A model generated the notes under the pieces. It was not told the DNA's origin. It did no database searches and worked only from the letters and a program-made list of their open reading frames with translations. From the IMG/VR virus record IMGVR_UViG_2703718838_000011: a stretch of 43,299 nt of DNA. One strand, written 5' to 3'. The stretch's first letter is position 1, and every line of letters begins with the position of its first letter. The DNA comes from a virus (Duplodnaviria; Heunggongvirae; Uroviricota; Caudoviricetes). The translations under genes and the position numbers were made by a program. Below, piece after piece: positions 27,879-29,359 of this stretch.

Positions 27879-28130
27879 TTAATATTTGTAGCGGTTTTCA
27901 GGAAGAAATGCGTATTCGTAAGTGAAGTTGAACGCCTCACTTTCAGTGTTAAATCGGCGCTCGGTGATATCACTCCAGTGTCCCCTGAAATACTTCTGAG
28001 CCCCCCACTTTCCCTCGAATGGGAATACAGCATACGCACCGACATACCGGTTATCAGCATGCGGATCTGGATATGACTCGCGTTCTGCCAGAACGTAAAA
28101 CTTGATGCCGCTTACAATGAGGCAGCCCAT
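27879..28130 (-). CDS. hypothetical aromatic-rich protein (P3)
   Basis: 83-aa ORF, ATG 28130 overlapping the stop of the upstream gene (ATGA). Confidence 0.4.
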   Translation of the reverse strand: MGCLIVSGIKFYVLAERESYPDPHADNRYVGAYAVFPFEGKWGAQKYFRGHWSDITERRFNTESEAFNFTYEYAFLPENRYKY

Positions 28131-28387
28131 CACTTCTTCTCGTTCTGCGCGGCCATATCCAGGTATCGCGGGTCGGATGATTTCGGTAGAGTCAGGCTTT
28201 GCTCTCGGTAGTAACGAACTCGCTCCATGAAGTATTCACGCAGATGATCTGGCTGCTCACGAGCTACCTGCTCAGCGATAACCGGCATGTTCAGGCGCTC
28301 TTTGTACGCTACGCCACTGGCAGCCAGGTCCACGTTAGCCTTGTCCTGCTCTTCTTTCGATTTTGCTGCGATATTAAAATGTGACAT
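28130..28387 (-). CDS. hypothetical charged protein (P2)
   Basis: 85-aa ORF, ATG 28387; translationally coupled to P3. Confidence 0.4.
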
Positions 28388-28569
28388 TAATCTGCTGTTC
28401 TCCCTCTTTTTTTCCTCGTTTCGTAAGGAGACCTGTAACCATCTACAGGGGCCACATCATCAGCCTCAAAGCGCTTAGCGTTTGCTATATCGGATTGAAG
28501 CCAGTGTTTTTTATATCGCTTCCTCGCCGCTTTGTATTTTTCGGCAGGTGTCATTTCTTCGTTTGACAT
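28387..28569 (-). CDS. hypothetical basic small protein (P1)
   Basis: ATG 28569 (track start 28632 is an upstream extension); 60 aa; its SD lies in the 3' arm of a hairpin at 28574-28599. Confidence 0.4.
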
Positions 28570-28724
28570 AAAAAATCCCCTTGAGTTATGGAGGGGATTA
28601 TAGGTCAGGCCGCGATTTGTTTCGACTGGCATAGTTCCGGCAGGTTAGCCCTCACCAGTGCTACAGCGAACGGGGGCACAGCCAAAAATAAAAACCGCCT
28701 AACCTGGTTGAAATTCGTTCAATT

Positions 28725-29066
28725 TTATTTGCAGGTAAATTGCACTACATCACCCTGAGACATTTGAAAGAATCGGTAATCACCATCTCCACGTCTTTGT
28801 ATAATATTGCCCTCTTTAGTCGCACCAGATGGGTATGTCTTTCCTTCCGGTTTTTCTGGCCTAATCTTGCTTGTGGTGTAAGAAATGGTCCCAAAGTTAA
28901 CTGTTATTGAATTTCCGATGTCAGTTATATTTGCCTTTACTTCGCCGGATTTTACTTCATTTGAGGTCATACTCCTTGCTATTCCAGAGCATACATATTC
29001 CTTTGCTTCAACGGCATGGGGCATAAGAAAGCCAATTCCTAACAACGTGATCGCCAAATATTTCAC
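28725..29066 (-). CDS. secreted protein of unknown function (moron)
   Basis: GTG 29066 with SD AAGGAG; signal peptide VKYLAITLLGIGFLMPHAVEA; extended -10 promoter TGTATAAT on minus strand at 29110-29117; Cys near both ends of mature part. Confidence 0.5.
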   Translation of the reverse strand: MKYLAITLLGIGFLMPHAVEAKEYVCSGIARSMTSNEVKSGEVKANITDIGNSITVNFGTISYTTSKIRPEKPEGKTYPSGATKEGNIIQRRGDGDYRFFQMSQGDVVQFTCK

Positions 29067-29228
29067 TTTATCTTCTCCTTGATGAGTCCCCCTCGATACT
29101 TTGGGAGGGATTATACAAAAGAAAAGTGTGGTCATGGCTATTTTTGGTAATGTTATTCGATGATAATTCACTTTATTTTTTAAATCATAATGCTATATTT
29201 CTTTCACCCCTTGCTTGCAAGGTACAAC

Positions 29229-29320
29229 GGAGGGTTGGCCGAGTGGTTGATGGCACCTCACTGATAATGAGGCGTACGGGCTATAAACCCGTACCGCGGG
29301 TTCGAACCCCGCACCCTATT
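29229..29320 (+). tRNA. tRNA-like gene with class II (long variable arm) fold; anticodon loop CUGAUAA gives anticodon GAU if folded canonically; acceptor stem imperfect
   Basis: Hand fold: acceptor GGAGGGT/ACCCTAT (one mismatch, one G-U), D-arm GCC-GAGTGGTTGAT-GGC, anticodon stem CCTCA/TGAGG, variable arm with 7-bp stem GTACGGG/CCCGTAC, T-arm GCGGG-TTCGAAC-CCCGC; no encoded CCA. Confidence 0.45.
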
Positions 29321-29321
29321 T

Positions 29322-29359
29322 AAGGGGTCGACAAATGTCGGCCCCTTCTTCGTTTTATA
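29322..29359 (+). terminator. rho-independent terminator following the tRNA-like gene
   Basis: 9-bp stem GGGGTCGAC/GTCGGCCCC (one G-U) with 4-nt loop, followed by TTCTTCGTTTT. Confidence 0.65.

What the first reader, a model, noticed from the sequence alone, without database searches (positions are those of the whole stretch)
27879..28600. Three tightly coupled small genes in the nin region, with an RBS-sequestering hairpin at the first
P1 (60 aa, basic), P2 (85 aa, charged) and P3 (83 aa, aromatic-rich) are co-oriented with overlapping or abutting stop/start codons (ATGA at 28130 and 28387). The SD of P1 (AGGGG) lies in the 3' arm of a stable hairpin (28574-28599) whose U-run reaches the start codon, suggesting regulated translation or termination. 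None of the three resembles the usual nin products I know (NinB, NinE, NinG, Rap). The coupled small acidic/small aromatic pair resembles toxin-antitoxin or small defence modules.
Basis: inference. Interest (0 to 1): 0.5.

Follow-up and report, generated by a model that had tools for sequence, protein, structure and literature searches.

The report
Phage theta-subunit cassette with leader hairpin
The three small genes are real, but the middle one is a phage copy of the theta subunit of the host DNA polymerase III (like phage P1 Hot), so this is an ordinary accessory cassette with a conserved leader hairpin and not a toxin-antitoxin or defence module.

Summary
Three co-oriented minus-strand genes of 60, 85 and 83 aa overlap by one base (TAATG, TGATG, not ATGA). 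A hairpin at 28574-28599 carries the P1 Shine-Dalgarno sequence in its 3' arm.

The interpretation does not hold.
- P2 is a DNA polymerase III theta/Hot homolog: Pfam PF06440 at E 3e-34, 77% identical to phage P1 Hot. It is already annotated as such in identical E. coli prophages and in phage HK639.
- No TA, defence or toxin signal was found for any of the three.

P1 and P3 are real genes of unknown function (dN/dS 0.14 and 0.10) from small families seen only in Enterobacterales.
- P1 is almost always followed directly by a theta gene (43 of 44 loci). In Mixta the pair also sits in a different operon.
- P3 is the commonest of at least 25 alternative genes found downstream of theta.

The hairpin is a conserved leader. 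Thirty-five of 36 distinct variants keep the stem, with 26 different loops. It stands in front of whichever gene comes first, P1 or theta, and also in front of other small accessory genes. HK639 annotates it as a terminator.

Best reading: a terminator-like hairpin that buries the ribosome-binding site and heads a translationally coupled Hot cassette at the start of the nin region. Interest is low to moderate.

The parts
28605..28686 (-). 27-codon remnant (..LAVPPFAVALVRANLPELCQSKQIAA*) of the 3' end of a phage C5 cytosine methyltransferase gene. In relatives this gene is intact and ends just before the hairpin.
   Evidence: Sequence read. Intact genes of about 700 aa end with the same peptide immediately upstream of the element in L059 and L097.
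28597..28602 (-). Conserved TATAAT box (-10-like) that overlaps the 5' arm of the hairpin. No conserved -35 accompanies it.
   Evidence: Promoter-like site TCGAAA-17-TATAAT. TATAAT in 33 and TACAAT in 3 of 36 distinct elements. The -35 match is not enriched over shuffles.
28574..28599 (-). Leader hairpin: 5' arm AAUCCCCU, 10-nt loop, 3' arm AGGGGAUU that holds the P1 Shine-Dalgarno sequence, then a U-run reaching the AUG. It is terminator-like and occludes the ribosome-binding site.
   Evidence: Folds. Conservation. Annotated as a terminator in HK639. No Rfam family matches it.
28387..28569 (-). P1: 60-aa basic protein (PHROG 16632, unknown function). One long helix (residues 8-36) and a poorly ordered tail whose C-terminal segment [15 protein letters not shown] is invariant or nearly invariant across the family.
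   Evidence: A theta gene lies immediately downstream in 43 of 44 loci.
28130..28387 (-). P2: homolog of the DNA polymerase III theta subunit, Hot type.
   Evidence: Pfam PF06440 at E 3e-34. NCBIfam NF008207 at 103.5 bits against a cutoff of 97. PDB 1se7/2ido (HOT) at E 5e-34. 77% identity to phage P1 Hot. RefSeq annotation.
27879..28130 (-). P3: 83-aa aromatic-rich protein (PHROG 17759, unknown function). Five strands and a C-terminal helix. It is one of many alternative genes found downstream of theta.

Best explanation
This is the first block of the nin region of a lambdoid E. coli prophage. It is a small accessory cassette transcribed rightward in the early operon (the minus strand of the window) and built as leader hairpin - P1 - theta - P3.

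[quoted passage not shown] By analogy with phage P1 Hot it binds the N-terminal exonuclease domain of the host proofreading subunit epsilon (DnaQ) and stabilises it. The phage thereby supplies or replaces theta in the host replicase that copies its DNA.

**The hairpin (structure and conservation shown, function inferred).** It sits where lambda has tR2. It buries the Shine-Dalgarno sequence, and in many relatives also the start codon, of the first cassette gene. In P1-first versions it is followed by a U-run. Most likely it acts as a weak intrinsic terminator and a brake on translation initiation for read-through early transcripts.

**Expression of theta and P3 (inferred).** They lack good ribosome-binding sites of their own. 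They are probably translated by coupling across the one-base stop/start overlaps.

**P1 and P3 (genes shown, function inferred).** Both are genuine conserved proteins of unknown function that travel with theta. P1 is an optional insert between the leader and theta. P3 is the commonest of many interchangeable genes downstream of theta. No biochemical role could be assigned to either.
For: **P2 is theta/Hot.** Searches give the homology. It is annotated as theta in identical E. coli prophages and in HK639. Theta homologs occur in 36 phage records. Theta and HOT bind and stabilise epsilon, and HOT can substitute for theta (PMC2528190; PMC7556043).

**All three are coding.** dN/dS is 0.07-0.14.

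**P1-theta linkage.**
- 43 of 44 evaluable P1 loci have theta directly downstream.
- Distant P1 homologs in Mixta keep the overlap with theta in a different operon, on the ERF/SSB side.

**P3-theta linkage.**
- 34 of 36 close P3 loci have theta ending at the P3 start.
- Three distant P3-like genes lie just upstream of a theta gene, the reverse order.
- P3 is downstream of theta in 32 of 115 distinct intact-theta loci. About 25 other families fill the same slot.

**Hairpin.**
- It is present in 35 of 38 P1-first and 33 of 71 theta-first cassette 5' ends.
- There are 36 distinct sequences and 26 loops. Two stem versions (9 and 10 bp) and G.U-compatible changes favour the sense strand.
- Consensus copies reach z -3.3 to -5.3.
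- HK639 annotates it as a terminator.
- Lambda tR2 occupies the same map position.
Against: - The window copy of the hairpin is weakened. It has 8 bp and a 10-nt loop, folds at -10.1 kcal/mol (z -1.68), and the terminator scan misses it.
- Many theta-first relatives lack a U-tract after the stem (AUUCAUCAUG). Some have a canonical terminator immediately upstream of the element. Termination therefore cannot be its universal role.
- The perfectly conserved TATAAT is not explained by a terminator or occlusion model.
- About 9 of 44 P1 loci keep an intact P1 next to a truncated theta. Most theta genes have neither P1 nor P3. A functional dependence among the three proteins is therefore not shown.
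- No experiment on this cassette exists.
Confidence: 0.7

Rival explanations
1. Toxin-antitoxin or small defence module. P3 would be a toxin or effector held in check by the charged protein P2, with P1 as a regulator.
For: Only general features: small, overlapping, co-oriented genes in a prophage accessory region. Neighbouring prophage genes include a YdaT 'toxin' domain protein elsewhere in the operon.
Against: - P2 is a theta/Hot homolog, not an antitoxin.
- P1 and P3 get no PADLOC, Pfam or NCBIfam hit.
- The P3 model matches no toxin fold.
- Theta occurs without P3 in most loci, and P3-like genes occur without theta. That pattern does not fit an obligate pair.
Confidence: 0.04
2. Replisome-modulating module. 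P1, and possibly P3, would be dedicated partners of the phage theta. They might bind the epsilon-theta complex or help Hot displace host theta, so that leader-P1-theta is a functional unit that retunes host Pol III proofreading.
For: - The P1-theta adjacency is kept in 43 of 44 loci despite unrelated upstream flanks and a hypervariable downstream slot.
- The pair recurs in a different operon in Mixta phages at about 55% P1 identity.
- One database cluster is a P1-theta fusion (P0083, PF06440).
- P1 is a single long helix plus a poorly ordered tail with an invariant C-terminal segment, as expected of a protein that folds on a partner.
- P3-like and theta are adjacent in two different gene orders.
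Against: - Recombination breakpoints fall inside theta rather than at the P1/theta junction. The linkage could be simple proximity within a 440-bp unit.
- About 9 of 44 P1 loci carry a truncated theta with an intact P1.
- Cronobacter and Pantoea P1 homologs lack an intact theta.
- Most theta genes have no P1.
- Phage P1 hot has unrelated neighbours.
Confidence: 0.15
3. Insulated moron leader. The conserved TATAAT would be a real -10 element, and transcription would start in the hairpin loop. Cassette-own transcripts, for example in the lysogen, would lack the 5' arm and have a free ribosome-binding site. Read-through early transcripts would carry the full hairpin and be terminated or poorly translated.
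For: - TATAAT or TACAAT is present in all 36 distinct elements at a fixed distance from the stem.
- The base 8 nt after the box is always a purine.
- The same element precedes various unrelated small accessory genes at ribosome-binding-site distance.
- Some copies sit directly after a canonical terminator.
- Phage P1 hot is reported to be expressed in lysogens as well as in lytic growth (PMC7556043 citing Chikova and Schaaper 2007).
Against: - There is no conserved -35 or extended -10. The -35 scores match shuffled controls.
- Some copies are full palindromes, TATAATCCCCTC..GAGGGGATTATA. The TATAAT may therefore simply be the outer part of a longer stem.
- No transcription start data exist.
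Confidence: 0.15

Closest known systems
[quoted passage not shown]
   Same: P2 is 77% identical to Hot over 75 residues, matches PF06440 and NF008207 above their cutoffs, and has the same length. It is expected to bind and stabilise epsilon as Hot and theta do (PMC2528190).
   Different: It lies in the nin region of a lambdoid prophage, not in the P1 late region. Its neighbours are P1 and P3, not UpfM/N/O and Lxr. Its leader is the TATAAT hairpin, not the P1 late promoter LPhot. Binding to epsilon was not tested.
Phage HK639 nin region (HK639_60, theta) with its annotated terminator
   Same: The architecture matches: upstream gene stop, TATAATCCCCTC hairpin, P1-type ORF, theta, a small variable gene, then NinB. 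The hairpin is annotated as 'terminator'.
   Different: In HK639 the P1 ORF is not annotated, although it is 78% identical. The gene after theta is an unrelated 73-aa protein, not P3.
Lambda tR2, the terminator between ren and ninB
   Same: It has the same map position, at the junction of the replication genes and the nin genes. It is a hairpin plus U-run placed just before the ribosome-binding site of the first nin gene.
   Different: The sequence is unrelated. In lambda the ribosome-binding site lies after the terminator. Here it lies inside the 3' arm. The U-tract is not conserved in all relatives.
AP2/ERF-type three-strand-plus-helix DNA-binding domain (for P3)

Membership tests
DNA polymerase III theta / HOT (PF06440, NF008207) | Sequence match above the curated family thresholds | tested here: met
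   PF06440 at 117 bits against a cutoff of 34.6. NF008207 at 103.5 bits against 97. PHROG 1105 at E 5e-39.
DNA polymerase III theta / HOT (PF06440, NF008207) | Close similarity to a solved family member, with family-typical length (76-85 aa) | tested here: met
   HOT (1se7/2ido) at E 4.7e-34 and E. coli theta at E 5e-19. 58 of 75 residues identical to P1 Hot. P2 is 85 aa.
DNA polymerase III theta / HOT (PF06440, NF008207) | Binds the N-terminal exonuclease domain of epsilon (DnaQ) and stabilises it | not testable with these tools
   Inferred from 77% identity to Hot. It needs a pull-down or a dnaQ49 suppression assay.
Type II toxin-antitoxin module | A protein belonging to a known toxin family or fold | tested here: not met
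   [not shown]
Type II toxin-antitoxin module | A cognate antitoxin (DNA-binding or neutralising protein) encoded as an obligate adjacent partner | tested here: not met
   The proposed partner P2 is theta/Hot. Theta lacks P3 in 83 of 115 distinct loci, and P3-like genes occur without theta.
Type II toxin-antitoxin module | Toxicity of one component relieved by the other | not testable with these tools
   Requires expression experiments.
Known anti-phage defence systems (PADLOC-DB) | Match to any defence-system protein model | tested here: not met
   P1, P2, P3 and the upstream ORF148 give no hit at E <= 0.1.
Intrinsic (Rho-independent) terminator | G+C-rich stem with a short loop | tested here: inconclusive
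   The window copy has 8 bp (4 G-C) and a 10-nt loop, and the consensus scan does not call it. Relatives have 9-10 bp (5 G-C) and mostly 7-8-nt loops.
Intrinsic (Rho-independent) terminator | U-tract immediately 3' of the stem | tested here: inconclusive
   Present in the window and in P1-first copies (AUUUUU(U)AUG). Poor in many theta-first copies (AUUCAUCAUG).
Intrinsic (Rho-independent) terminator | Transcripts end at the site | not testable with these tools
   Only a database annotation in HK639 exists. 3'-end mapping is needed.
Sigma-70 promoter | -10 hexamer | tested here: met
   TATAAT at 28602-28597. It is conserved in all 36 distinct elements, as TACAAT in 3 of them.
Sigma-70 promoter | -35 hexamer at 16-18 bp, or an extended -10 | tested here: not met
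   The window has TCGAAA, 4 of 6. Across 49 distinct upstream flanks the best -35 scores match shuffled controls.
AP2/ERF-like DNA-binding domain (P3) | Profile match to the AP2 family | tested here: inconclusive
   [not shown]
Classical nin products (NinB, NinE, NinG, Rap/RusA) | Homology of P1, P2 or P3 to these families | tested here: not met
   Pfam, PHROG and NCBIfam give no such hits. A DUF1367 protein in the NinB position and NinG lie downstream of P3.

The most novel reading that the evidence does not exclude
The unit leader hairpin-P1-theta is a mobile, selected module. P1 would be a dedicated partner either of the phage theta-epsilon complex or of its own leader RNA. P1 has an arginine/lysine-rich helix and an invariant RSPYExRKKRGR tail. 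It could, for example, act as an arginine-rich-motif autoregulator of the hairpin. That would give temperate phages a regulated way to retune the proofreading subunit of the host replicase. P3, with its weak AP2-like core, would be a further nucleic-acid-binding accessory of the same module.
Probability: 0.12. Interest if true: 0.6.

Novelty: new member of a known kind. Interest (0 to 1): 0.3.

Why it matters
Why temperate phages carry a copy of theta has been an open question since P1 Hot was described. Theta is the smallest and least understood subunit of the E. coli replicase.

This locus adds no new kind of system. The comparison does show three things about lambdoid theta genes:
- They come as a cassette with a conserved leader hairpin that buries the ribosome-binding site.
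- The cassette often includes a tightly linked 60-aa basic protein, which is unannotated in HK639.
- The slot downstream of theta is hypervariable.

If P1 or P3 turned out to act on the epsilon-theta complex, they would be handles on phage manipulation of host replication fidelity. Otherwise they are two more conserved phage ORFans.

Tried and rejected
- **TA or defence.** PADLOC, Pfam and NCBIfam scans of P1, P2, P3 and ORF148 gave nothing except theta for P2.
- **P3 function.**
  - The AF2 model is good (pLDDT 87).
  - Foldseek against BFVD and PDB gives nothing below E 1e-3. afdb50 was unavailable.
  - A PDB profile search gave nothing.
  - An exhaustive profile search of 1.84 billion representatives found 41 proteins, mostly about 80 aa and stand-alone, with no informative domain fusion. 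The few long multi-stretch matches looked like repeat artefacts and were not inspected.
  - The AP2 lead was tested by hhalign and stays inconclusive.
- **P1 function.**
  - The AF2 model has low confidence and shows a single helix.
  - The PDB profile search gave noise only.
  - The profile search of 5.8 billion proteins found only Enterobacterales hypothetical proteins.
  - P1 shows no similarity to the phage P1 neighbours of hot, UpfM/N/O.
- **Promoter idea.** A -35 enrichment test was negative.
- **Rfam.** No family matches the hairpin.
- **P1/theta reassortment.** This was meant as a test of selected linkage. Breakpoints lie inside theta, so the test does not discriminate.
- **Covariation tool.** MAFFT put the 10-bp stem variants out of register. 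I therefore did not run the formal pair-count tool and used per-sequence folding instead.
- **Literature.** The two Chikova and Schaaper papers on hot were not held. Their content is cited second-hand from PMC7556043 and PMC2528190.

Full report
**What is there**

Read on the minus strand, the region holds three ORFs:
- P1, 28569..28387, 60 aa.
- P2, 28387..28130, 85 aa.
- P3, 28130..27879, 83 aa.

The junctions are one-base overlaps: gat-TAATG-tca and aag-TGATG-ggc.

P1 is basic (pI 9.7). P2 has 33% charged residues. P3 is 23% F/W/Y.

A 99.9% identical stretch occurs in four complete E. coli genomes out of 5426. RefSeq annotates the same three CDS there as hypothetical protein, DNA polymerase III subunit theta and hypothetical protein.

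The surrounding gene order is that of a lambdoid early-right operon:
- Upstream: repressor and Cro-type regulators, a YdaT-domain protein, O/P-type replication genes, a frameshifted methyltransferase, a tRNA-Ile-like gene and a small protein with a signal-peptide-like N-terminus.
- Then P1-P2-P3.
- Downstream: a DUF1367 protein in the NinB position, NinG, YlcG and the antiterminator Q.

**P2 is a theta/Hot homolog**

- P2 matches Pfam PF06440 (DNA_pol3_theta) at E 3e-34, 117 bits against a cutoff of 34.6.
- It matches NCBIfam NF008207 above its cutoff and PHROG 1105.
- Among solved structures the best match is phage P1 HOT (1se7/2ido) at E 5e-34. E. coli theta follows at E 5e-19.
- Identity to P1 Hot is 58 of 75 residues.

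Theta binds the N-terminal exonuclease domain of epsilon and stabilises it. HOT does the same and can substitute for theta. The epsilon186-HOT and epsilon186-theta structures agree (PMC2528190). P1 hot is reported to be expressed in both lysogenic and lytic growth (PMC7556043).

Theta homologs are annotated in 36 phage GenBank records. These include P1-like phages, HK639, several Klebsiella and Enterobacter lambdoid phages, and Serratia, Pectobacterium, Proteus and Yersinia phages.

The statement that none of the three genes resembles a known product is therefore wrong for P2. The charged partner of the proposed TA pair is a replisome subunit homolog.

**P1 and P3 are real genes of unknown function**

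Coding status: third-codon-position variation dominates in all three genes. Median pairwise dN/dS is 0.14 for P1, 0.07 for P2 and 0.10 for P3.

P1:
- It belongs to PHROG 16632, unknown function.
- The family has 21 clusters among 5.8 billion proteins, and 42 with a profile search. All members whose source names an organism are from Enterobacterales, and every name a source gives is 'hypothetical protein'.
- The C-terminal segment [15 protein letters not shown] is invariant or nearly invariant across the family.
- The AlphaFold model shows one long helix (residues 8-36) and a poorly ordered tail, at pLDDT 66.

P3:
- It belongs to PHROG 17759, unknown function.
- A profile search of 1.84 billion representatives finds 41 proteins, most of them about 80 aa and stand-alone.
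- Its model is confident (pLDDT 87) and shows five strands and a C-terminal helix.
- I followed up the AP2-like motif (GKWxAQ...W...F[DN]TE.EAF). hhalign against five solved AP2 domains, whose sequences I verified, gives 37% probability. Pfam AP2 is hit by one of 27 family members at E 0.13. This remains a lead only.

None of the proteins hits PADLOC.

**Linkage to theta**

From P1-family loci in IMG/VR, 43 of 44 evaluable loci have a theta gene starting 0-6 bases after P1.

From close P3-family loci, 34 of 36 have a theta gene ending exactly at the P3 start. None of them has P1.

From theta-sampled loci (80 of 242 hits), the counts are:

| Arrangement | Loci |
|---|---|
| P1-theta | 6 |
| theta-P3 | 30 |
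| neither | 44 |
| P1-theta-P3 | 0 |

The trio in the window is therefore a rare recombinant. E. coli relatives match either hairpin + P1 + the 5' part of theta (97.5%) or theta + P3 (89.5%). The junction lies inside theta.

The slot downstream of theta is hypervariable. Among 115 distinct intact-theta loci, P3 fills it in 32. About 25 other families, or NinB directly, fill the rest.

Two observations go beyond simple co-inheritance:
- Distant P1 homologs (50-55% identity; Mixta, Cronobacter, Pantoea) lie in a different operon, next to ERF/SSB/RecT genes and towards the integrase. In Mixta they are still overlapped by a theta gene. Cronobacter retains a theta remnant or none.
- Three distant P3-like genes (32-34% identity) sit just upstream of a theta gene, the reverse order. 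Eleven other distant ones have no theta nearby.

Against a strict functional dependence:
- Breakpoints between P1 types and theta types lie inside theta.
- About 9 of 44 P1 loci have a truncated theta with an intact P1.
- Most theta genes have neither partner.

**The hairpin is a conserved leader**

In the window it is AAUCCCCU / CCAUAACUCA / AGGGGAUU, followed by UUUUAUG. By itself it is unremarkable: -10.1 kcal/mol, z -1.68.

In phage HK639 the same element is annotated as a terminator ending at the ATG of an unannotated P1 ORF.

Across relatives the block TATAAT-CCCCTC-(loop)-GAGGGG-ATTTTT-ATG is conserved, although the DNA further upstream is unrelated.

Pooling all loci gives these counts:
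- 35 of 38 P1-first cassettes carry it.
- 33 of 71 theta-first cassettes carry it directly in front of the theta ATG.

It is therefore the leader of the cassette, and P1 is an optional insert between the leader and theta.

Evidence that the stem itself is under selection:
- There are 36 distinct sequences with 26 different loops. Thirty-five keep a stem of at least 7 bp.
- Two stem versions exist: CCCCTC/GAGGGG (9 bp) and CCCTCTC/GAGGGGG (10 bp with a U.G pair).
- The 12 variants with G.U pairs are more stable on the sense strand. This points to an RNA-level constraint.
- Consensus copies fold at -14.5 to -20.7 kcal/mol, z -3.3 to -5.3.
- In many copies an outer helix also pairs the start codon.
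- The window copy has a G-to-A change (AAGGGG) that opens the closing pair.
- The Mixta-type P1-theta pair has a leader of different sequence but the same design, GATATACTCC-ACTCA-GGAGGTAT (-10.5 kcal/mol, z -2.7).

**What the leader does is inferred**

Points in favour of a terminator:
- It has a G+C-rich stem.
- The window and the other P1-first copies have a U-run.
- It lies a few bases after the stop codon of the upstream gene.
- It has the map position of lambda tR2, whose sequence is unrelated.
- HK639 annotates it as one.

Points against termination as the universal role:
- Many theta-first copies have a poor U-tract.
- Some follow a canonical terminator.

Occlusion of the ribosome-binding site is common to all copies.

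The perfectly conserved TATAAT suggests an embedded -10 element, with transcription starting in the loop. Such a transcript would have a free ribosome-binding site. However, no -35 is conserved. Some copies are full palindromes, TATAATCCCCTC..GAGGGGATTATA, so the box may be part of a longer stem.

The element is not specific to theta. Of 127 matches in IMG/VR:

| What follows the element | Matches |
|---|---|
| theta | 46 |
| P1 | 29 |
| other small accessory genes, at ribosome-binding-site distance | 21 |
| no nearby ATG | 31 |

It therefore behaves as a portable leader or boundary element of nin-region accessory genes. No Rfam family matches it.

**Verdict**

- The TA or defence interpretation is not supported.
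- The locus is a Hot-type theta cassette at the head of the nin region. It has a conserved terminator-like leader that buries the ribosome-binding site, and two conserved small proteins of unknown function.
- It is a new member of a known kind. It is already annotated in RefSeq and is similar to HK639.
- The points of residual interest are the P1-theta gene pair, the portable leader element, and the unresolved reason why temperate phages carry theta.

Noticed in passing
window 28605-28686 (-): The 'intergenic' DNA upstream of the hairpin is a 27-codon remnant (..LAVPPFAVALVRANLPELCQSKQIAA*) of the 3' end of a phage C5 cytosine methyltransferase of about 700 aa. That gene is intact directly upstream of the same hairpin in L059 and L097. 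In the window the ORF148/tRNA segment has displaced it.
   Followed up: partly
IMG/VR loci from L181 onward (element scan): The element TATAATCCCCTC-loop-GAGGGG is a generic portable leader in enterobacterial temperate phages. Besides theta (46) and P1 (29) it precedes other small accessory genes (21). These include an N-terminal transmembrane protein 'MSGWDNGIDAVSAIAA..', a protein beginning 'MSANFSECGKYRYRLDR' that I only guess to be DUF1643-like, a lipoprotein and an AP2-HNH-like protein. Some copies are full 12-bp palindromes with no adjacent ORF (31 matches had no nearby ATG).
   Followed up: partly
L301-L307 (Mixta, Cronobacter, Pantoea prophages): Distant P1 homologs of 74-77 aa, with an extra basic N-terminus, lie in the recombination-gene operon towards the integrase. 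They are still followed by theta in Mixta, by a theta remnant or none in Cronobacter, and by no detectable theta in Pantoea. Their leader is a hairpin of different sequence that also buries the ribosome-binding site and overlaps a TATACT box.
   Followed up: partly
L046, L047, L056, L063, L066, L071, L088, L307 (downstream of theta or P1): Two other gene families recur next to theta. One is a protein of about 80-90 aa ('LLxGG...YAVA...P', for example MIKYLLVGGRANGRVVE..). The other is a 160-190-aa protein with an N-terminal transmembrane segment. Neither is present in the window, where P3 occupies that slot.
   Followed up: no
window 29229-29347 (+): A 92-nt tRNA-Ile(GAU)-like gene (ARAGORN; Rfam tRNA at 46 bits; also annotated in RefSeq) lies on the strand opposite to the early operon. 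It is unusually long for a tRNA-Ile. A strong terminator-like hairpin (29322-29347, 11 bp) follows it immediately.
   Followed up: no
window 28725-29171 (-): ORF148 is annotated in RefSeq as a 113-aa hypothetical protein. It has a signal-peptide-like N-terminus (..LLGIGFLMPHAVEA|KE). Homologs lie upstream of theta cassettes in L054 and L163. It is probably a secreted moron product.
   Followed up: no
L105-L108, L142, L147, L170 (upstream of theta-first cassettes); L038, L039, L048: Many theta-first cassettes are preceded by a 10-15-codon remnant 'MPKSPAERKAAQ..*' of a gene of about 115 aa. In distant phages that gene is intact and lies directly upstream of the P3-like gene. This suggests the theta cassette was inserted between that gene and P3.
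   Followed up: no
[not shown]
   Followed up: no
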